From the NCBI RefSeq assembly GCF_947501405.1, contig NZ_CANMVK010000004.1, positions 112,843 to 176,842 on the forward strand: a stretch of DNA of 64,000 nucleotides, read 5' to 3'. Numbering within the stretch: the first letter of the stretch is position 1; every line of letters starts with the position of its first letter. The DNA is from an uncultured Hoeflea sp. GTDB taxonomy: Bacteria; Pseudomonadota; Alphaproteobacteria; Rhizobiales; Rhizobiaceae. Below are positions 88 through 37,290 of this stretch, piece after piece. The notes below the pieces were generated by a model. The model worked only from the letters and a program-made list of their open reading frames with translations. It was not told where the DNA came from and ran no database searches. Made by a program: the position numbers and the translations under genes.

Positions 88-1113
88 TTAGAACATCTGA
101 CTGGGATCAAAGTTCACGATGACGTTGGACCAGGAGTCATATTTTTCCGCCGGCAACTGGTAGGGTTGGGATTTCAGAACCGCGCGCCTGGCGCTGCCTG
201 CAAGGGTGCGCCGCACGGCATCCGAGCCGCCGCTTGCCTGAACCTGTGGCTGACCAACAATGTTGCCCGACGGGTCGAGGCTCATGGTAACCGTCACCCT
301 GACATCACCGCCGTCGGCCATGCCCGGAATGATGTTCCAGTTGCGCTGGATCTGTCCGCGCAGCGCGTCCATCTCGCTCTGGCTCAGCGTATTGCCACGT
401 GTGGTGCGGGTTCCGCCCAGTGCTGCGGTTTCCGTCGAGCGTCTGGCGCCGCCGCCCTGAGCGTCCTGCTTGTTGAGCAGCGCCGCCACTTCATCAGCGT
501 TAAAATCGCTCTGCTTGGATGATGCTGTCTGTGAGGCGGATGGCTTGGGCGGTGTCGGCCGGGTCTGCGGCACCGGACCGGCACTTGGTAGCGCCGCAAA
601 TTGCGGCTCGGCGGGCGCAGCCTCGGCAATCGCTTCAGCGACCGGGTCCGGGTCCGGGTCGGTCGGCAGCGCAGCGACCTCGGCAGGTGCCGGCTCAGGC
701 GCCGGTTCCGGAGCTGGCGCGGGTTCAGCGGCCTCGACAGGCGCGGGCTCCGCTATCTCGGGTTCAGGCGCGGGCGCCGGTTTGTCGGCTGGTTCCGGCG
801 GGGCTTCCGAGACCACTTCCCGCAGGCTTGGTTCTGCAGCCGGAGCGGAATTCAGATCGACATCATTGTCGCCGACATTCTGGGCGTCCTGCACCGGTTC
901 GGGGCGCGTGGTCGGCACCGGGGCTGAACTCTCCTCCACTGGCGCGGTCTTTTCGCCCTGCTGGATCTGGGTCAGTTCCTCGACCGGAACGATACTCACC
1001 GGAAACGCCTCGACATCAGCCACCTCAAGCGTCCGCGGCGCCGTATAGGACGACAGCGCAAAGCCGAGCACCGCAGCGTGCAAAAGTGTCGATGTGGCGA
1101 GGCTCCCTTTCAT
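88..1113 (-). CDS. tolA: Cell envelope integrity protein TolA
   Basis: N-terminal TM anchor, long Pro/Ala/Glu-rich linker, TonB/TolA-type C-terminal domain (IQRNWN...VRVTVTMSLDPSG...FDPSQM); follows tolR. Confidence 0.9.
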   Translation of the reverse strand: MKGSLATSTLLHAAVLGFALSSYTAPRTLEVADVEAFPVSIVPVEELTQIQQGEKTAPVEESSAPVPTTRPEPVQDAQNVGDNDVDLNSAPAAEPSLREVVSEAPPEPADKPAPAPEPEIAEPAPVEAAEPAPAPEPAPEPAPAEVAALPTDPDPDPVAEAIAEAAPAEPQFAALPSAGPVPQTRPTPPKPSASQTASSKQSDFNADEVAALLNKQDAQGGGARRSTETAALGGTRTTRGNTLSQSEMDALRGQIQRNWNIIPGMADGGDVRVTVTMSLDPSGNIVGQPQVQASGGSDAVRRTLAGSARRAVLKSQPYQLPAEKYDSWSNVIVNFDPSQMF

Positions 1114-1123
1114 CGGCGCGCCG

Positions 1124-1576
<453 letters not shown>

Positions 1577-1585
1577 ACCGGCCTC

Positions 1586-2302
1586 CTATTCCGCAGCCTG
1601 GCGGGCGTTCATCCGCTCGTCGATCTGGCGCGACAAAATGCCGGAGAATTCATCGGCAAAGCCTTCCATCCGCGCCGACAGCTTGCCGGCATCGGAGGAA
1701 AACTTGTTGTAGGCAATCACTGCGGGAATTGCGGCCAGCAGACCGATCGCGGTGGCAAGCAAGGCCTCGGCGATGCCGGGCGCCACAACCGCGAGGTTGG
1801 TCGATTTCGATCCGGCGATGGCCTGAAACGAGGTCATGATGCCGACCACGGTACCGAACAGGCCGATAAACGGCGCCGCAGACCCGATCGAGGCCAGCGA
1901 CCCGAGCTTGCCTTCCAGATGTTCTGCCTCGCGGGCCAGCGTTACGTCCATCGCCTTGTCGATGCGCATCTGCAGCCCGATTGGAGATTTGGCGCCGCGC
2001 TCGAAGGACTTCTTCCACTCCTGCATCGCGGCCACGAAGATCGCACCCATGCCGGTGGTCTTGCGGTCCGAGAGGGTCCGGTAGAGCTCCTCGAGCGATT
2101 GGCCCGACCAGAAGACCTGCTCGAACTGATCTAGCTGCCGCCGGAACTTGCCGAACGAAATCCATTTGTCCGCAACGATGGCCCAGGTCCAGATCGATGC
2201 CCCGACAAGCCCGAGCATGACCAGTTTGACCACCAGGCCCGCCTGCATGAAGAGCGACCAGAGGGTAACCTCGCTGGTTGCCGCCAATCCAACCTGTTCC
2301 AT
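1586..2302 (-). CDS. tolQ: TolQ
   Basis: APFIGLFGTVVGIMTSF and APGIAEALLATAIGL helices; upstream of tolR. Confidence 0.96.
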   Translation of the reverse strand: MEQVGLAATSEVTLWSLFMQAGLVVKLVMLGLVGASIWTWAIVADKWISFGKFRRQLDQFEQVFWSGQSLEELYRTLSDRKTTGMGAIFVAAMQEWKKSFERGAKSPIGLQMRIDKAMDVTLAREAEHLEGKLGSLASIGSAAPFIGLFGTVVGIMTSFQAIAGSKSTNLAVVAPGIAEALLATAIGLLAAIPAVIAYNKFSSDAGKLSARMEGFADEFSGILSRQIDERMNARQAAE

Positions 2303-2481
2303 TCACATAACCTCGAATCCAAACGCCCGGTTGGTCTACCGGGCGGCCAAGACGTCACATTTGCCGAAAATCCAGAAGTGCGCGATCGCCGCCTATTCAC
2401 TTCTCAGGACTTCTCGCGGCCAATTTTGGTCAAAGGATGGCGCATATGATCCGCGCAATCCTCACGATTGGATTCATAAAT

Positions 2482-2504
2482 GGTTATGGTTAAGGCTTGG
2501 TTAG
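2482..2504 (-). promoter_or_regulatory. CtrA-like box upstream of tolQ
   Basis: TTAA-GGCTTGG-TTAG at 2490-2504 (one mismatch to TTAA-N7-TTAA); minus strand contains TTAACCAT. Confidence 0.55.
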
Positions 2505-2580
2505 GATTCCGGTGGCCTGCCCGGGCAATGCCCAAAACATCAGCCATGGCCTCAACCCGCCCAACGGCGACCTGGTTTGA

Positions 2581-3042
2581 TCAGGATTTGACCGTCGCGG
2601 CCGCACCGACCCCGAATTTTTCGGCCAGCGCATCGGGCAGCCGCCGGGCCCGTCCGAGCCCGTTGATCACAGCCACGGTGACGCGCGCGCTGGCGAGAAG
2701 ATGGTCTTCCCGCGAGATTGTCTGGTTAAGCATCATGCGTGCGCCGCGCACCTCCTCGGACAGGGTCATGATGGTCAGCACATCGTCCATCCGGGCGGGG
2801 GATTTGAAATCGATCTCCATGCGCCGCACCACGAAAGCGGTGGCCTCCGCCGGATCCTGTTCCGCGTGCAAGGCACCTTGCGACACCCCCAGAAGCCGGA
2901 TGAAATCGGTGCGGCCACGCTCAAAGAAGTGCAGGTAGCGGGCATGGTAGACAAAGCCGGAGAAGTCCGTGTCTTCGTAATAGACCCGTTGCACAAGCTC
3001 GTGCCCACCCTCAATCAAACGGCCGGAGATGCAACTGGTCAT
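2581..3042 (-). CDS. ybgC: Tol-Pal-associated acyl-CoA thioesterase YbgC
   Basis: RVYYEDTDFSGFVYHARYLHFFERGRT hotdog-fold motif; upstream of tolQ. Confidence 0.95.
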   Translation of the reverse strand: MTSCISGRLIEGGHELVQRVYYEDTDFSGFVYHARYLHFFERGRTDFIRLLGVSQGALHAEQDPAEATAFVVRRMEIDFKSPARMDDVLTIMTLSEEVRGARMMLNQTISREDHLLASARVTVAVINGLGRARRLPDALAEKFGVGAAATVKS

Positions 3043-31627: not shown

Positions 31628-32445
31628 TGCCAGAGACCAAAGCAAAAGGCGGCGCTCCAGGCGGCGTCGCCTCCTTGCCGATGTATGACTGGCCGGAGAT
31701 CCGCGCCTGGACCGACGCGCTGTGGTTAGCCTTGCGCACCCAGTTGCAACAGCGCGGCATCGCTGCGCCCGATCATCTCGAACGGCCAGAAGACCCCGAA
31801 CCTCTGTGGCTCGATCCGTCTCTGGTGCTGTCGCAGACCTGCGGCCATCCCTATGCCAACCAACTGGCCGGCAAGGTGACGCTGATCGGCGCCCCGACCT
31901 ATCCCGGCATCGGCGCAAAGCCGGGTCATTACTTCTCGGTCCTGGTCGCCCGCAAAATGGATCAACCCAGCAACCTTGGCGATCTCAGTAACAAGCGCTT
32001 TGCCTTCAACATGGCACAATCACAATCGGGTTTCGCAGCACCTGTGCGGCTTTTGGCCGACGCCGGCTGTCACTCGCGGCCCAAACCATTTGCGACCGGA
32101 GCGCACCGGGCATCCATACAGGCAGTGGCGCAGGGACAAGCCGACTGGGCGGCGATCGACGCGGTCACCTGGGAACTGGCGAAGCGGCACGAACCGGCGG
32201 CGCAAGAGCTTGACGTGTTTGCCGTAACGCCCGAGACGCCGGGGCTGCCGCTTATCTCAAGTGTGCGTTTTTACTCCCAAGCAAGCATCATCGCCGACGC
32301 CATTGACGCGGCGATTGACGATCTGTCATCCGATGTTCGTGATCACGTGTTGCCGTCAGGATTGAAGCGATTCACTCCGGCTGACTATGCGCCGCTCGCC
32401 AGGCCCCTGCCCATAGCGGCGGCCTTACCCGGCATGGCCGGCTGA
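31627..32445 (+). CDS. PhnD/SsuA-fold protein without a signal peptide
   Basis: ASLPMYD, LSQTCGHP, YFSVLV, AFN..QSQSG, TGAHRASI.AV..G.AD.AAID; no hydrophobic h-region or lipobox; TAATG overlap with the desaturase. Confidence 0.82.
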   Translation: MPETKAKGGAPGGVASLPMYDWPEIRAWTDALWLALRTQLQQRGIAAPDHLERPEDPEPLWLDPSLVLSQTCGHPYANQLAGKVTLIGAPTYPGIGAKPGHYFSVLVARKMDQPSNLGDLSNKRFAFNMAQSQSGFAAPVRLLADAGCHSRPKPFATGAHRASIQAVAQGQADWAAIDAVTWELAKRHEPAAQELDVFAVTPETPGLPLISSVRFYSQASIIADAIDAAIDDLSSDVRDHVLPSGLKRFTPADYAPLARPLPIAAALPGMAG

Positions 32446-32461
32446 TCGGGACTGGCCGGAG

Positions 32462-33493
32462 CTATCTTTCCGTCAGCTTCAACTCGATGCGCCGGTTGGT
32501 GGCGCGGTCCTCGTTGCTGTCGCCCTCAGCGATCGGTTGGAACTCGCCGAAGCCAGCGGCCACCAGGCGGTTGGCCGGAACCCCCTCGGCGATCAGATAT
32601 TTGACCACCGAAGTTGCCCGGGCACTGGATAGTTCCCAGTTGTCGGCATAGCGGCCGGTGCCCGACAGCGGCACATTGTCGGTGTGCCCGTCAACCCGCA
32701 GCACCCAGTTGATCTCCTCCGGGATCTCCCGGGACAACTCGTTGATTGCCTCCGCGAGCTTCGCCATCTGCTCTTGGCCCGCCGGGTTGAGCTCGTTACC
32801 GCCCGACGGAAACAGCACCTCGGATTGAAACACGAAACGGTCGCCCACCACCCGCACATCTTCACGGCTCGACAGGATCTCCCGCAGACGGCCGAAGAAA
32901 TCCGACCGGTAGCGGTTAAGCTCCTGTACCCGCTGCGCCAACGCCACATTGAGCCGCCGGCCCAGATCGGCGATCTTGGCCTGGGTCTCGCGGTCCTTGG
33001 ATTCCGATACGTCCAGGGCATCTTCAAGTGCTGCCAATTGAGTACGCAGCGCCGAAATCTGTTGATTGAGCAGTTCCACCTGATTGAGCGCGCGCTGCGA
33101 AACCTTCTTCTCCGCATCCAGGGTCTCGCTGAGCGTGCCAATGCGGGCCTCCGCCGCGGCACTGGCGCCCGAGCCGCTCGCCAGCAATTCCTGCAACCGC
33201 GACCGGTCGCTTTCCGCCTCGCTGAGCGACGCCTGGAGATTGGCCAGCGTATCCTCGAGATCCTGCTTGCCGGACCGCTCCAGCGCCAGCAACTGGGTGA
33301 GTTCATTGATCTGGCTGTTGAGCCGGTTCAAAACCTGGTCGCGGCCCGAAATCTCCCGTGACAGGAAAAACTGCGCCAGCACAAACACCGTCAGCAGGAA
33401 CATGATCGCCAGAAGCAGCGTCGACAGAGCGTCGACGAAGCCCGGCCAGTAATCGACCGCCCGGTCCCGCCGCCGGTTTCGCGCCAGCGCCAT
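32462..33493 (-). CDS. MotB/OmpA-like peptidoglycan-binding membrane protein
   Basis: YWPGFVDAL plus a single TM, long coiled coil, OmpA domain (RVDGHTD, NWELSSARA, NRRIEL). Confidence 0.9.
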   Translation of the reverse strand: MALARNRRRDRAVDYWPGFVDALSTLLLAIMFLLTVFVLAQFFLSREISGRDQVLNRLNSQINELTQLLALERSGKQDLEDTLANLQASLSEAESDRSRLQELLASGSGASAAAEARIGTLSETLDAEKKVSQRALNQVELLNQQISALRTQLAALEDALDVSESKDRETQAKIADLGRRLNVALAQRVQELNRYRSDFFGRLREILSSREDVRVVGDRFVFQSEVLFPSGGNELNPAGQEQMAKLAEAINELSREIPEEINWVLRVDGHTDNVPLSGTGRYADNWELSSARATSVVKYLIAEGVPANRLVAAGFGEFQPIAEGDSNEDRATNRRIELKLTER

Positions 33494-33496
33494 CGC

Positions 33497-34519
33497 CTAT
33501 TTGTCTCCGAGCTTTTCGGTCAGCTTGTCGAGCGTTTCGCGCATGCGCCGCGCTTCCACCTGTTGCGCCTCGATCCAGTCACGCAGCATCTGCTGCTCGC
33601 CGCGCATATTCTTGACCAGACCCTGAATGCCTTCGGCAAGGCTCGCCATCGCCGCGGTGGTGCGCGGGGTCACACCCGACTCCTGCGACAGCTTCTGCAT
33701 CCGCTCCGAAAGCATGCGGATTTCTTCGGTGGCGCCGGCGCCTTCGGCCGGCATTGCGATCTCGGAATCAAGATCCGTCATGGTCGACAGCCAGTTCTCA
33801 AGTTCAGTGTAAAACCGGTTCTGCGCGCGCCCAGCCTGCAGGTCGAGAAAGCCCAGGATCAATGAGCCCGCGAGGCCGAACAGGGATGACGAAAACGCGG
33901 TTCCCATTCCGTCGAGCGGCGCCGACAACCCGGTCTTCAGTGTCGAGAGCACATCTTCGGTGCCGCCGCTGCCGGGATCGAGCGACTGGATCACCTGGTT
34001 GATTGAGCCGATGGTGCCGAGCAGACCCCAGAAGGTGCCAAGCAGCCCCAGGAAAACCAAAAGCCCGATCAGATAGCGCGACGTGTCGCGCGATTCATCC
34101 AGACGGGTGGCGATCGAATCGAGGATCGAGCGCAGCGATGAGGTCGACAGCGCCATCTCCTGACGCCGTCCGATCAGCGCCCGCATCGGCGCCAGTAGTA
34201 CCGGGTCGCGACCCACTTTTTCCGCGTTTCCCGTCGCGCGCAGCGAATTGACCCACCGCACCTCCGGCCTGAGCCGCAGCACATGTGTAAACACCAGCAG
34301 CACGCCCACCGCCAGAACACCGACGATCAACCCGTTGAGACCCGGATTTGCCAGGAAAGCCGTTTGGATTTGCCGGTACAGAATGGCCGCGACGAAACCG
34401 GAGAGGATGAGGAAAATCATCATGCTCCAGAAGAAAACCATCGGACTTGAGAGCTTGTGCGGATCCGCACCGCTGCCGTCTTCGGAGATGCCCCATCCCG
34501 ACAATGTCAGTTTCGCCAT
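33497..34519 (-). CDS. MotA/TolQ/ExbB-family proton-channel protein
   Basis: LLVFLGLLGTFWGL and GMGTAFSSSLFGL channel helices, two N-terminal TMs, C-terminal coiled coil. Confidence 0.88.
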   Translation of the reverse strand: MAKLTLSGWGISEDGSGADPHKLSSPMVFFWSMMIFLILSGFVAAILYRQIQTAFLANPGLNGLIVGVLAVGVLLVFTHVLRLRPEVRWVNSLRATGNAEKVGRDPVLLAPMRALIGRRQEMALSTSSLRSILDSIATRLDESRDTSRYLIGLLVFLGLLGTFWGLLGTIGSINQVIQSLDPGSGGTEDVLSTLKTGLSAPLDGMGTAFSSSLFGLAGSLILGFLDLQAGRAQNRFYTELENWLSTMTDLDSEIAMPAEGAGATEEIRMLSERMQKLSQESGVTPRTTAAMASLAEGIQGLVKNMRGEQQMLRDWIEAQQVEARRMRETLDKLTEKLGDK

Positions 34520-34644
34520 GCGTGTTCCGTCCTGGCTGCTGCCCCAAATCATCCGATTGCGCGAACACTAACCGATAATATGGCGGAAATGAAAGCAGGC
34601 GCGTAAAACAGGGTTATCGTGGCCGCAGGGCGCAGTTCGCCGCG

Positions 34645-36189: not shown

Positions 36190-37290
36190 TCAGCGCTTGC
36201 CGAACTGGTTGGCAGCCTCGATGGCGCGCTTTTGCTCGTCTTCGGTAAGACCCTGGTAGAAATCATCCAGCGACCGGTCGTCGTAACCCGCACGCCGCGA
36301 CAGGATGTACCATTTGGCGGCCTCCACGGGGTCGCCCAGGGTGCCGATGGCGTTGATGTGCAGCACCGCCATGCGGTTTTGCGCCACCACATTGCCGCGG
36401 GTGGCAGCCACCTGCATCCAGCGGAATCCGGCCTCGTAATCCTTGTCTCCACCTATCCCGTCGATCAGCCAGATCGCGTAATCGAGCTGCGCGGTGTCAA
36501 AGCCGGCGCGAGCCGCCTTCTCCATGTACTGGCGTGCCTGCGCGCGTTTCTCGTCAGTCACGCCAGCGGTGTTGGCGTAGATTTGCGCCAACGCATATTG
36601 CGCATCCGACACGCCCTGTTCGGCGGCGCCTTCGAAATAGGGCAGCGCTTCCAGAACCCCGGCAGTCCCCGGTTTGGCCGCTACAAGAATCTGGGCGTGG
36701 TTGAACTGGGCGAAGGCGTTGCCGGCGTCGGCGGCTTTCTTCATCAAAGCCTCGGCCTTTTGCCTGTCAGGCGCGACATATCTGCCCTCAATCAGCATCA
36801 CGCCATACTTGAACTGTGCGGAAGCATCACCGCCCTCGGCCGCCTGCTGATACCAGAACGCCGCGTCATCCATGCTGCGCGACACACCAAGTCCCGAGGC
36901 GAAGAGCTCCGCCACCAGCGTCTGCGCTGCCGGATCGCCCAGTTGCGCGCGTGGCAGCGCCAGTTCCATTGCTGTCAGATAGTAGCCGCGCTGAAACGCG
37001 CCAAAGGCACGTGCGGTGGCGTCGCCGGGACTTCCTGCCGCAGCGTCCGGCGCCGTCGAAGCCGCCTCGCCGGACTGCACATCGTCGGTCTGAGCCTCCT
37101 GCGTTGCAGCCTCTTCGGTCTGCGATTCGGGCGGCTGCTCCGTAGCTGGCTGGTCCTGGGCGGCCGCCGGCTGAGCCATAACTGTCAGCGCAATAGCAAG
37201 CACCGCGCCGTATCGCGCCGCAGCGGGAGGGATCAACACAGCGGCAATTCCGCTCATATGGCGTGCAATCAAATTCATCATGCCGCGCAT
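36190..37290 (-). CDS. Secreted Sel1-repeat protein
   Basis: Signal peptide (AQPAAA-Q), acidic linker, at least five Sel1 repeats (e.g. WYQQAAEGGDASAQFKYG); start may be 37257. Confidence 0.9.
   Translation of the reverse strand: MRGMMNLIARHMSGIAAVLIPPAAARYGAVLAIALTVMAQPAAAQDQPATEQPPESQTEEAATQEAQTDDVQSGEAASTAPDAAAGSPGDATARAFGAFQRGYYLTAMELALPRAQLGDPAAQTLVAELFASGLGVSRSMDDAAFWYQQAAEGGDASAQFKYGVMLIEGRYVAPDRQKAEALMKKAADAGNAFAQFNHAQILVAAKPGTAGVLEALPYFEGAAEQGVSDAQYALAQIYANTAGVTDEKRAQARQYMEKAARAGFDTAQLDYAIWLIDGIGGDKDYEAGFRWMQVAATRGNVVAQNRMAVLHINAIGTLGDPVEAAKWYILSRRAGYDDRSLDDFYQGLTEDEQKRAIEAANQFGKR

What the first reader, a model, noticed from the sequence alone, without database searches (positions are those of the whole stretch)
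32462..34519. Orphan MotA/MotB-like ion-driven motor outside flagellar, Tol and Ton clusters
The first gene has MotA/TolQ/ExbB channel helices plus a cytoplasmic coiled-coil tail. The second has the conserved TM Asp (WPGFVD), an unusually long periplasmic coiled coil of over 150 aa, and an OmpA-type peptidoglycan-binding domain. A full TolQRA set is already present in this window and no flagellar, TonB or Zorya partner genes are adjacent. It lies downstream of Sel1-efp-suhB in the same orientation. This looks like a 5:2 PMF-powered motor with an unknown load. Given the neighbouring envelope and polar-growth genes, a role in cell-wall or outer-membrane mechanics is a plausible hypothesis.
Basis: partly seen in the sequence, partly recalled or inferred. 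Interest (0 to 1): 0.65.

Follow-up and report, generated by a model that had tools for sequence, protein, structure and literature searches.

The report
Uncharacterised wall-anchored ZorAB-like ion motor
Two coupled genes of this Hoeflea genome encode a proton-channel motor of the flagellar-stator/Tol/Zorya kind that is fixed to the cell wall by a long coiled coil, is inherited in the core genome of about two thirds of Alphaproteobacteria whether or not they have flagella, and has no published function.

Summary
Window 33497-34519(-) encodes a 340-aa MotA/ExbB/TolQ-fold protein (A). Window 32462-33493(-), 3 nt downstream, encodes a 343-aa partner (B). B has the invariant membrane Asp (WPGFVD, Asp21), about 160 residues of helix with a mid-point hinge, and a MotB-type peptidoglycan-binding domain.

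The pair is not flagellar, Tol or Ton. The genome has its own TolQR and a flagellar MotA. In 301 alphaproteobacterial species genomes A and B co-occur in 192, and 62 of those lack FliG. Reduced genomes of 0.8-1.4 Mb keep both genes even when they are unlinked.

By profile-profile comparison and by tree, A is closest to ZorA, the Zorya phage-defence motor. But it has a short tail, no ZorC/D, fixed core-genome synteny and dN/dS of about 0.05.

Published Tn-seq tables suggest the rhizobial orthologues are dispensable in culture; orthology there rests on gene order only. I found no paper on its function.

Most likely it is a housekeeping, wall-anchored 5:2 ion motor working in the cell envelope. 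Its load is unknown.

The parts
34561..34595 (-). Conserved promoter-like motif between suhB and gene A: CTTTCATTTCCGCCATATTATCGGTTAGTGTTCGC. The Rhizobiaceae consensus is CTTCAATTCGTCGCAATTTT..ACTAGCCTCCGG.
   Evidence: Alignment of 29 upstream regions shows conserved TTCA(A/T)T and (C/T)TAG blocks about 17 nt apart. The simple sigma-70 scan found nothing. Function is inferred only.
33497..34519 (-). Gene A: 340-aa MotA/ExbB/TolQ/ZorA-fold channel (rotor) subunit.
   Evidence: Pfam PF01618 25 bits. PADLOC ZorA1 7.7e-14. AF2 pLDDT 83.9. Foldseek top hits are ExbB, TolQ, ZorA, MotA and PomA. hhalign to ZorA gives 97.4% probability. dN/dS 0.048.
34274..34441 (-). A membrane helices 1 and 2 (aa 27-47 and 60-82) with the conserved short loop AF.ANP.LNG.
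   Evidence: Hydropathy, AF2 helices 27-46 and 59-96, invariant F55, A57, N58 and N62. The N-in topology is inferred.
34076..34273 (-). A membrane-proximal cytoplasmic segment (aa 83-148) with conserved charged motif RLDESRD..RY.
   Evidence: Invariant or near-invariant E86, W89, P106, R130, D134, R139, E142, R144, R148 and Y149.
33836..34075 (-). A channel core: helix 3 (FLGLLGTFWGL, Thr162), a 30-residue periplasmic loop, and helix 4 (GMGTAFSSSLFGL, Ser212).
   Evidence: Invariant in 51 sequences. The signature is shared with ZorA (G.LGTF.G ... G..TAF.(S/T)S..G, long loop) and not with TolQ, ExbB or MotA.
33500..33835 (-). A cytoplasmic helical tail (aa 229-340).
   Evidence: AF2 helices 187-247, 263-280 and 285-338. 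DLQAGQAQNRFY..LE.WLS is conserved. Most non-Hyphomicrobiales homologues carry an extra conserved C-terminal helix.
32462..33493 (-). Gene B: 343-aa MotB-like stator subunit (membrane helix with Asp, coiled coil, peptidoglycan-binding domain).
   Evidence: NCBIfam NF006544 647 bits and Pfam OmpA 66 bits. AF2 pLDDT 80.8. dN/dS 0.066. Directly downstream of A in 30 of 30 loci.
33431..33448 (-). WPGFVD motif at the start of the B membrane helix. The Asp21 codon is 33431-33433.
   Evidence: Coordinates. W, P, V and D are invariant in 42 homologues (that alignment numbers them 15, 16, 19 and 20 because Met1 was left out).
32870..33361 (-). B periplasmic helical region (aa 45-208): two long helices joined by a Gly/Ser hinge at aa 107-110 (33164-33175).
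   Evidence: AF2 helices 15-105 and 110-207 in the numbering without Met1. The Gly/Pro cluster sits at 0.47-0.50 of the coiled-coil length in nearly all ~340-aa homologues. Insertions in longer homologues fall at the hinge.
32465..32854 (-). B C-terminal OmpA/MotB-type peptidoglycan-binding domain (aa 214-343).
   Evidence: Profile against PDB sequences: MotS 2e-27, MotB 8e-26, PomB 1e-19, ZorB 2e-8. Foldseek: MotB-like 3khn TM 0.79, then MotS, PomB and H. pylori MotB. The DGHTD ... NW.LS..RA ... NRRIE motifs are conserved.
32438..32459 (.). GC-rich hairpin between the convergent 3' ends of gene B and the PhnD-like gene; a possible shared terminator.
   Evidence: Terminator-like site in the pattern scan, not above the shuffle expectation. 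Weak evidence.

Best explanation
A and B form a housekeeping, non-flagellar ion-driven motor of the 5:2 class: five A subunits around a dimer of B.

Inferred mechanism, by homology with MotAB, ExbBD, TolQR and ZorAB:
- B is held on the peptidoglycan by its MotB-type domain, which sits at the end of a helical stalk of about 160 residues.
- Protons pass the invariant Asp21 of B and the Thr162/Ser212 ring of A.
- The flux turns the A ring around B.
- The moving part offered to the cell is the short helical cytoplasmic tail of A and its conserved membrane-proximal domain. This resembles a cut-down Zorya motor.

My leading guess for the job is surveillance or maintenance of the cell envelope (wall-to-inner-membrane coupling), not motility, uptake or phage defence.

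What is shown: the genes, the motifs, the fold class, the ZorA kinship, the core-genome inheritance and the independence from flagella. What is inferred: stoichiometry, proton use, rotation and the envelope role.

My odds: about 0.85 that it is an active 5:2-type motor, about 0.9 that it is not a flagellar stator, and about 0.35 for the envelope-sensor/maintenance role specifically.
For: Fold and motifs:
- A's model matches only 5:2-motor A subunits at the top of the PDB search.
- The channel motifs and B's Asp are invariant.
- B's C-terminal domain is MotB/MotS/PomB-like.

Coupling and selection:
- There is a 3-nt gap between the genes.
- B follows A in 30 of 30 loci.
- A and B co-occur in 192 of 301 class genomes, with 8 A-only and 2 B-only, all weak hits or incomplete assemblies.
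- Both genes are kept, unlinked, in 0.8-1.4 Mb genomes.
- dN/dS is 0.048 for A and 0.066 for B.
- The family has 1,086 clusters at 50% identity with E <= 1e-30.

Not flagellar, Tol or Ton:
- The genome has its own TolQ/TolR and a flagellar MotA next to FliG.
- A gives no NCBIfam TolQ, ExbB or MotA hit.
- Carriage is independent of FliG: 130/62 against 65/44, odds ratio 1.4, p = 0.17.
- HIMB59 carries the pair.

ZorA kinship:
- PADLOC ZorA1 gives 49 bits against 25 bits for Pfam.
- hhalign gives 97.4% to ZorA, against 66% for TolQ, 20% for MotA and 7% for ExbB.
- In the tree, the A family (98/99) joins ZorA-type sequences across a 96/96 branch.

Core-genome context:
- The order thiE-(Sel1)-(efp)-suhB-A-B-...-rpmE is conserved across orders.

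Envelope hints:
- Many lineages add a secreted Pro/Ala-rich OmpA-domain protein upstream.
- The Sel1 neighbour is the positional orthologue of RgsF.
- SMc03993, probably A, carries a ChvI-bound fragment.
Against: - There is no experimental datum on this family.
- Stoichiometry was not modelled; no multimer prediction was available.
- Foldseek TM-scores are moderate (0.45-0.55 on the target) and E-values are only about 1e-3.
- The profile finds no motor in PDB by sequence alone.
- No load or partner is identified in this genome. The third gene of other lineages is absent here.
- The pair is missing from about a third of Alphaproteobacteria, including two reduced genomes of the window's own family.
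- The probable R. leguminosarum orthologue of B is scored non-essential, and SMc03993 is not in the S. meliloti essential list. So the motor is dispensable in culture.
- The RgsF link is synteny only. Four reduced genomes with A and B have no Sel1 protein of that kind.
- Coiled coils of up to about 1,000 residues in some homologues do not fit a simple strut across the periplasm.
Confidence: 0.55

Rival explanations
1. It is a Tol/Ton-like energiser. The motor does its work in the periplasm, pulling on a partner protein that reaches the wall or outer membrane. The cytoplasmic tail is only structural.
For: In many non-Hyphomicrobiales lineages a third gene sits directly upstream of A. It encodes a signal peptide, a short conserved V.V(D/N)L motif, a TonB-like Pro/Ala-rich linker and a Pfam OmpA domain. 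B itself carries a long periplasmic coiled coil. The tol cluster lies 13-32 kb away in many genomes.
Against: The third gene has no homologue in this genome, and Hyphomicrobiales keep A and B without it. No TolA/TonB-type membrane-anchored partner is encoded nearby. The channel core is ZorA-like, not TolQ/ExbB-like.
Confidence: 0.2
2. It is a passive tether. B is mainly a structural link or ruler between the inner membrane and peptidoglycan, and A is a non-rotating chaperone or gated leak channel.
For: The coiled-coil length is almost fixed (126-130 residues) across about 80 Hyphomicrobiales species. Alphaproteobacteria have unusual wall-membrane tethering (my own knowledge, not tested here).
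Against: The ion-path residues (B Asp21, A Thr162/Ser212 and the Gly-rich helices) are invariant over the whole class. That is hard to explain without ion flux. The coil length varies from about 116 to about 1,000 residues outside the order.
Confidence: 0.12
3. It is a minimal or degenerate Zorya-type anti-phage system.
For: The best profile matches are ZorA1/ZorA3 and ZorB3. It groups with ZorA in the tree and by hhalign.
Against: There is no ZorC/ZorD or other effector. The tail is about 110 residues, against about 500 in ZorA (PMC11946911). B has a long linker whereas ZorB has none. The pair is single-copy in fixed core-genome synteny across orders. It is kept in reduced genomes of 0.8-1.4 Mb. 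dN/dS is about 0.05. True ZorA scores 294 bits on the profile, against 40-55 bits for this family.
Confidence: 0.05
4. It is an ordinary second flagellar stator.
For: Public annotations call it 'flagellar motor protein MotA' or MotB. B's wall-binding domain is closest to MotS/MotB/PomB. A has a four-helix topology like MotA.
Against: 62 of 192 genomes with the pair have no FliG, and carriage is independent of FliG. HIMB59 and other small genomes without a FliG match keep it. This genome has a canonical MotA beside FliG on another contig. In the tree it is far from the MotA and PomA-like clades. hhalign to MotA gives 20%.
Confidence: 0.03

Closest known systems
ZorA-ZorB, the membrane motor of Zorya anti-phage systems (ZorA5B2; PDB 8qyd, 8vvn; PMC11946911)
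   Same: It is the closest relative of the channel subunit. hhalign gives 97.4% probability over 156 columns, and the two sit on the same side of a 96/96 branch in the tree. They share the G.LGTF.G and G..TAF.(S/T)S..G helices and a long periplasmic loop between them. In both, a helical cytoplasmic tail follows the last membrane helix. In both, the B subunit has a membrane Asp and an OmpA-type wall-binding domain.
   Different: The tail is about 110 residues instead of about 500. A has four predicted membrane helices instead of three. B carries about 160 residues of helix between the membrane and the wall-binding domain, whereas ZorB has no linker. There are no ZorC/ZorD genes. The context is core genome, not a defence island. 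It is single-copy and vertically inherited.
Flagellar stators MotAB / PomAB / MotPS
   Same: A has a four-helix topology. B has the MotB-type segment with Asp, and a C-terminal domain most like MotS, MotB and PomB in sequence and fold.
   Different: There is no link to flagellar genes or to FliG carriage. The channel helices are unlike MotA. The cytoplasmic domain between helices 2 and 3 is only about 65 residues. It is a distant clade in the tree.
TolQR-TolA-TolB-Pal and ExbBD-TonB
   Same: Same fold class; these are the top Foldseek E-values. In other lineages there is an operon partner with a Pro-rich linker and an OmpA domain, reminiscent of TonB/TolA plus Pal.
   Different: A gives no hit to the NCBIfam TolQ or ExbB models, while the genome's real TolQ scores 285 bits. 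B has a wall-binding domain that TolR and ExbD lack. No TolA/TonB-type anchored partner is present.
NCBIfam PRK09039 models (NF006542-NF006546, 'peptidoglycan-binding protein')
   Same: B is a full-length member: NF006544, 647 bits against a cut-off of 362.
   Different: These models only name the protein. No function is attached to them.

Membership tests
MotA/ExbB/TolQ/ZorA superfamily (A subunits of 5:2 ion-driven motors) | Pfam PF01618 match and the helical fold with two C-terminal channel helices | tested here: met
   PF01618 25 bits, cut-off 22.9. The top 50 Foldseek hits are all ExbB, TolQ, ZorA, MotA or PomA chains.
MotA/ExbB/TolQ/ZorA superfamily (A subunits of 5:2 ion-driven motors) | Conserved polar Thr/Ser on the two channel helices facing the B-subunit Asp | tested here: met
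   T162 (GLLGTFWGL) and S212 (AFSSSLFGL) are invariant in 51 sequences. They align with the Thr positions of TolQ, ExbB and ZorA.
MotA/ExbB/TolQ/ZorA superfamily (A subunits of 5:2 ion-driven motors) | Assembly as A5B2 | not testable with these tools
   Only monomer prediction was available.
MotB/ExbD/TolR/ZorB-type B subunits | Single N-terminal membrane helix with a conserved Asp | tested here: met
   WPGFVD with Asp21, invariant in 42 homologues.
MotB/ExbD/TolR/ZorB-type B subunits | Gene immediately downstream of, and co-inherited with, the A gene | tested here: met
   3-nt gap. Adjacent in 30 of 30 loci. Co-occurrence in 192 genomes, with 8 A-only and 2 B-only.
Flagellar stator (MotAB/PomAB) | Occurs with, and depends on, a flagellar rotor (FliG) | tested here: not met
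   62 of 192 carrier genomes lack FliG. Odds ratio 1.4, p = 0.17.
Flagellar stator (MotAB/PomAB) | Groups with MotA/PomA in sequence | tested here: not met
   Separate clade in the tree. hhalign gives 20% to MotA and 5% to PomA-like sequences.
Flagellar stator (MotAB/PomAB) | MotB-type peptidoglycan-binding domain | tested here: met
   MotS 2e-27, MotB 8e-26. Foldseek TM 0.7-0.8.
Tol-Pal / Ton energisers (TolQR, ExbBD) | Match to the TolQ/ExbB and TolR/ExbD equivalog models | tested here: not met
   A has no TolQ or ExbB hit at E <= 0.01, and none is among the 25 NCBIfam hits listed for B (53 in all). The genome's own TolQ and TolR score 285 and 134 bits.
Tol-Pal / Ton energisers (TolQR, ExbBD) | Membrane-anchored TolA/TonB partner encoded with the motor | tested here: not met
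   The neighbours are suhB upstream and a convergent PhnD-like gene downstream.
Zorya (ZorABCD / ZorABE...) | ZorA-type channel core | tested here: met
   PADLOC ZorA1 7.7e-14. hhalign 97.4%. Tree.
Zorya (ZorABCD / ZorABE...) | Long (about 500-residue) ZorA tail | tested here: not met
   The tail is 112 residues. The ZorA tail spans residues 223-729 (PMC11946911).
Zorya (ZorABCD / ZorABE...) | Adjacent effector genes (ZorC/ZorD or ZorE and the like) in a variable, island-like context | tested here: not met
   No such genes are present. The same core synteny is seen in 74 of 80 Hyphomicrobiales loci and across orders.
NCBIfam NF006544 (PRK09039.1-3) | Full-length score above the curated cut-off | tested here: met
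   647.5 bits against 362, positions 1-343 of 343.

The most novel reading that the evidence does not exclude
The A-B pair is the housekeeping cellular cousin (or ancestor type) of Zorya's ZorAB. On this reading it is a proton-driven rotary sensor that reads the mechanical state of the wall and periplasm through a hinged coiled-coil probe. It reports to the cytoplasm through a short rotating tail. It dates from the alphaproteobacterial ancestor and is still kept by streamlined and strongly reduced lineages. If so, Zorya would be a defence-specialised offshoot of a general envelope-surveillance machine.
Probability: 0.25. Interest if true: 0.85.

Novelty: new variant of a known kind. Interest (0 to 1): 0.68.

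Why it matters
Five jobs are known for 5:2 ion motors: flagellar rotation, gliding, Ton uptake, Tol-Pal envelope maintenance and Zorya defence. This would be a further, widespread branch with no assigned job.

It is present in model and applied organisms: Sinorhizobium, Rhizobium, Agrobacterium, Mesorhizobium and Ochrobactrum-type Brucellaceae. It is also present in abundant marine lineages (HIMB59).

It is routinely mislabelled 'flagellar motor protein MotA/MotB'. That corrupts motility inferences in aflagellate genomes.

Genetics exist in several carriers and the pair looks dispensable in culture. The function is therefore directly testable with a deletion and one point mutant.

It also gives a non-defence relative with which to ask how Zorya's sensor evolved.

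Tried and rejected
- Literature: nine full-text searches and eleven papers read or queried. None treats this pair. The Rgs proteins of S. meliloti are not A or B. The MotAB-evolution paper (PMC12505986) and the force-transducer paper (PMC12204202) do not describe it.
- Profile of A against PDB sequences: only coiled-coil noise.
- RgsF co-occurrence: a profile of the Sel1 neighbour cross-hits Sel1 proteins everywhere (237 of 301 genomes, many hits each). The test is uninformative, except that G026, G030, G044 and G077 carry A and B with no such hit.
- Third gene (C): tblastn of seven C proteins against the whole genome found nothing.
- Sigma-70 and terminator pattern scans: nothing above the shuffle expectation.
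- Tn-seq: the full S. meliloti table is cut in the stored supplement. SMc03993/SMc03992 rows were not retrievable. The RL4024 row was not retrievable. The Brucella and PNAS Rhizobium papers are not held.
- Hairpin versus straight rod for the B coiled coil: the mid-point hinge and the equal arms favour a hairpin or jointed rod. No coordinates or multimer model were available, so this is unresolved.
- Rejected readings: flagellar stator, Tol/Ton paralogue and Zorya defence (see rivals). Also rejected are spurious ORFs in GC-rich DNA: dN/dS of about 0.05 and hundreds of orthologues argue against that.
Full report
**1. What is there**

On the minus strand, downstream of thiE, a Sel1-repeat gene, efp and suhB, lie two ORFs.
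- A: window 33497-34519, 340 aa.
- B: window 32462-33493, 343 aa.
- They are separated by 3 nt: TAG GCG ATG.

The ORF list also offers a start at 34552. Homologues are about 340 aa and align from the 34519 ATG, so the shorter form is the likely one.

The genome is a Hoeflea: the best protein hits are 92-95% identical Hoeflea sequences, and a Hoeflea MAG locus is 94% identical. Against that MAG, dN/dS is 0.048 for A and 0.066 for B. Both genes are therefore real and under strong purifying selection.

**2. Anatomy of A**

- Hydropathy and the AlphaFold model (pLDDT 83.9) give four membrane helices at about aa 27-47, 60-82, 149-172 and 204-228.
- Helices 2 and 3 are separated by a cytoplasmic segment of about 65 residues.
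- Helices 3 and 4 are separated by a 30-residue periplasmic loop.
- A 112-residue helical tail follows helix 4.
- Helices 3 and 4 carry motifs that are invariant in 51 diverse homologues: FLGLLGTFWGL with Thr162, and GMGTAFSSSLFGL with Ser212.

Pfam MotA_ExbB is only just reached, at 25 bits. No NCBIfam TolQ, ExbB or MotA model is hit at all. The best profile hits are PADLOC ZorA1 (7.7e-14) and ZorA3.

A PDB fold search returns only A subunits of 5:2 motors among its 50 best hits: ExbB, TolQ, ZorA, MotA and PomA. Probabilities are near 1, but TM-scores are moderate at 0.45-0.55. A sequence profile alone finds no solved motor.

**3. Anatomy of B**

B matches NCBIfam NF006544 ('peptidoglycan-binding protein', PRK09039) over its full length with 647 bits. 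It also matches Pfam OmpA.

The N-terminus holds WPGFVD. The Asp is residue 21 (codon 33431-33433). W, P, V and D are invariant in 42 homologues.

The model (pLDDT 80.8) shows one helix running from the membrane to about residue 106. A Gly/Ser hinge follows, then a second helix to about residue 208, then an OmpA-like domain.

The C-terminal domain is closest to flagellar stator B subunits.
- By sequence: MotS 2e-27, MotB 8e-26, PomB about 1e-19, ZorB only 2e-8.
- By fold: the MotB-like protein 3khn at TM 0.79, then MotS, PomB and H. pylori MotB.

In nearly all ~340-aa homologues the Gly/Pro cluster lies at 0.47-0.50 of the coiled-coil length, giving two arms of about 60 residues. Extra residues in longer homologues are inserted at that hinge. 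This fits a helical hairpin or a jointed rod. I could not decide between them.

**4. It is not one of the genome's known motors**

The whole genome has three PF01618 genes.
- TolQ, in this window at 1586-2302, with TolR at 1124-1576 and YbgC at 2581-3042.
- A flagellar MotA on another contig, 3 kb from FliG.
- A.

**5. Distribution**

In 301 species genomes sampled evenly over Alphaproteobacteria:
- A is found in 200, almost always as one copy.
- B is found in 194, at E <= 1e-30.
- Both are found in 192.
- The 8 A-only cases are weak or divergent hits or incomplete assemblies. The 2 B-only cases are incomplete assemblies.
- B lies directly downstream of A in 30 of 30 loci examined.

Outside the class, strong matches are rare. 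In a library of 1.84 billion cluster representatives, the A profile finds 1,086 proteins at E <= 1e-30.

Eighteen small genomes (0.8-1.6 Mb) all have an A-profile match, four of them weak or divergent. Fourteen keep clear copies of both genes. In several of those the two genes are far apart, for example A at 0.14 Mb and B at 0.69 Mb in a closed 1.1-Mb genome. One carrier is the streamlined marine strain HIMB59.

Co-retention after the operon is broken is strong evidence that the two proteins work together and that the function matters outside the laboratory.

The pair is nevertheless absent from about a third of the class. That includes two reduced genomes of the window's own family.

**6. The flagellar question**

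FliG is detected in 195 of the same 301 genomes. The counts are:

| | FliG present | FliG absent |
|---|---|---|
| A and B present | 130 | 62 |
| A and B not both present | 65 | 44 |

The odds ratio is 1.4 and Fisher p = 0.17, not corrected for phylogeny. Nine of fourteen small genomes with both genes have no FliG match. The pair is therefore not an ordinary second stator.

**7. Nearest relatives**

I collected TolQ, ExbB, MotA, PomA-like and ZorA-type sequences from genomes that also carry the pair, and from three genomes with true Zorya. ZorA1 profile scores reach 294 bits there, against 40-55 bits for the A family.

In the core alignment, the A family and ZorA share three features that TolQ, ExbB and MotA lack:
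- G.LGTF.G on the first channel helix.
- A long periplasmic loop.
- G..TAF.(S/T)S..G on the second channel helix.

Profile-profile comparison gives:

| A family against | Probability | Notes |
|---|---|---|
| ZorA | 97.4% | E 1.3e-11, 156 columns |
| TolQ | 66% | 23 columns |
| MotA | 20% | |
| ExbB | 7% | |
| PomA-like | 5% | |

A maximum-likelihood tree (50 sequences, 233 columns) makes the A family one clade (98/99). It places that clade with the ZorA-type sequences on one side of a 96/96 branch, away from TolQ/ExbB and MotA/PomA. Branches are long and the order within the ZorA side is weak. So 'sister to or nested in ZorA-like proteins' is as far as this goes.

Against the published Zorya structure (PMC11946911) the differences are plain.
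- ZorA has three membrane helices and a tail of about 500 residues that signals to ZorC/ZorD.
- ZorB has no linker before its wall-binding domain.

Here the proportions are reversed: a short tail inside the cell and a long coiled coil outside.

**8. Context**

Across 80 Hyphomicrobiales loci the order thiE-Sel1-(efp)-suhB-A-B is nearly constant; suhB is upstream in 74. Across other orders the block thiE-efp-suhB-...-A-B-(ABC exporter)-rpmE persists. The tol cluster usually lies 13-32 kb away. This is ancient core-genome synteny, not a mobile island.

Upstream of A there is a conserved promoter-like motif at window 34561-34595.

In many lineages outside the Hyphomicrobiales a third gene sits between suhB and A. 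It encodes a signal peptide, a short conserved V.V(D/N)L motif, a Pro/Ala-rich linker and a Pfam OmpA domain. This genome has no homologue of it.

B varies from 327 to 1,254 residues, entirely through its coiled coil. Within the Hyphomicrobiales the coil is held at 126-130 residues.

**9. Leads from published data (all rest on orthology by gene order, which I could not verify by sequence)**

- In S. meliloti, suhB is SMc03994. The signal-peptide protein in an operon with thiE2 is SMc03995 (diCenzo 2018 supplement).
- SMc03995 is RgsF, a Sel1/TPR periplasmic protein. It is required for growth, localises to the growth pole and septum, and was pulled down with RgsA together with TolQR (PMC7327166).
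- The window's Sel1 gene (36190-37290) is its positional orthologue.
- The next gene, SMc03993, would then be A. It is not in the list of essential genes. It contains a DNA fragment bound by ChvI, the regulator of the envelope-stress two-component system, in a gel-shift screen (PMC3687685).
- In R. leguminosarum, suhB is RL4025. RL4023, a 'putative chemotaxis protein' and probably B, is scored non-essential (PMC5118466 supplement).

I found no paper that studies the pair.

**10. Reading**

The sequence shows an intact ion path, a wall anchor and a partner-bearing rotor subunit. Both proteins are conserved as a unit for as long as the class has existed. The most economical reading is a working 5:2 motor anchored to peptidoglycan.

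Three things lead me to place its job in envelope surveillance or maintenance:
- its closest relative is a sensor of envelope perturbation;
- its optional operon partner is a secreted wall-binding protein;
- its fixed neighbours and the one regulatory lead are envelope-related.

Culture dispensability fits a conditional role. None of this identifies the load, and I rate the specific role at about one in three.

Earlier notes of this scan on the same family in other genomes reach the same general reading. They are not independent evidence.
- the class-wide A/B/FliG counts;
- the unlinked co-retention in reduced genomes;
- the ZorA tree and profile comparison;
- the MotB-type assignment of B's anchor;
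- the mid-point hinge;
- the upstream motif;
- the RgsF, ChvI and Tn-seq leads.

Noticed in passing
window 36190-37290 (-): The Sel1-repeat gene between thiE and efp is the positional orthologue of S. meliloti SMc03995 = RgsF, an essential periplasmic polar-growth/septation factor (PMC7327166; diCenzo 2018 supplement). It also gives a sub-threshold hit to Vibrio MotX, which is itself a Sel1 protein.
   Followed up: partly
L119, L120, L122, L123, L125, L126, L128 (between suhB and A): Many Alphaproteobacteria outside the Hyphomicrobiales have a third same-strand gene. It encodes a signal peptide, a conserved V.V(D/N)L motif, a Pro/Ala-rich linker and a C-terminal Pfam OmpA domain. It is absent from this genome.
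   Followed up: partly
L125:3348-7112 (-); also L128, L121, L115: B homologues reach 1,254, 653, 570 and 490 residues purely by coiled-coil expansion. That is far longer than the periplasm is wide.
   Followed up: partly
G044, G206, G125, G202, G280, G168, G026 (reduced genomes): A and B are both retained but are no longer adjacent, for example 0.55 Mb apart in a closed 1.1-Mb genome.
   Followed up: yes
window 1124-3042 and whole-genome positions: The ybgC-tolQ-tolR cluster lies 13-32 kb from the A-B pair in at least ten genomes of different families. This is conserved large-scale synteny of the core genome.
   Followed up: no
L045, L054, L061-L065, L070 (Mesorhizobium/Aminobacter, between suhB and A): A haemolysin-III family membrane protein gene (Pfam HlyIII 5e-26 in L062) is inserted between suhB and A on the same strand.
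   Followed up: partly
G322, G348, G398, G402, G444, G460, G499, G521, G527, G561, G567, G576 (non-alphaproteobacterial, 1.4-2.9 Mb): There are weak matches (35-45 bits) of the A profile to 330-365-aa ORFs in another family of the phylum. This may be a sister family.
   Followed up: no
L174 (G079:C1:3216900-3218800): A 280-aa PF01618 protein has a long periplasmic loop between its channel helices. It branches alone at the base of the TolQ/ExbB/MotA side of the tree.
   Followed up: no
window 88-1113 (-): The ORF in the TolA position downstream of tolR has no Pfam or NCBIfam match.
   Followed up: partly
A homologues outside Hyphomicrobiales (e.g. L012, L111, L127): Most carry an extra conserved C-terminal helix: D.A.R.H(I/L)R.(L/I)D...L.EE...GR......R.E(I/L)(K/R).L.(R/K)T. 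The 325-366-aa Hyphomicrobiales forms, including this one, lack it.
   Followed up: no
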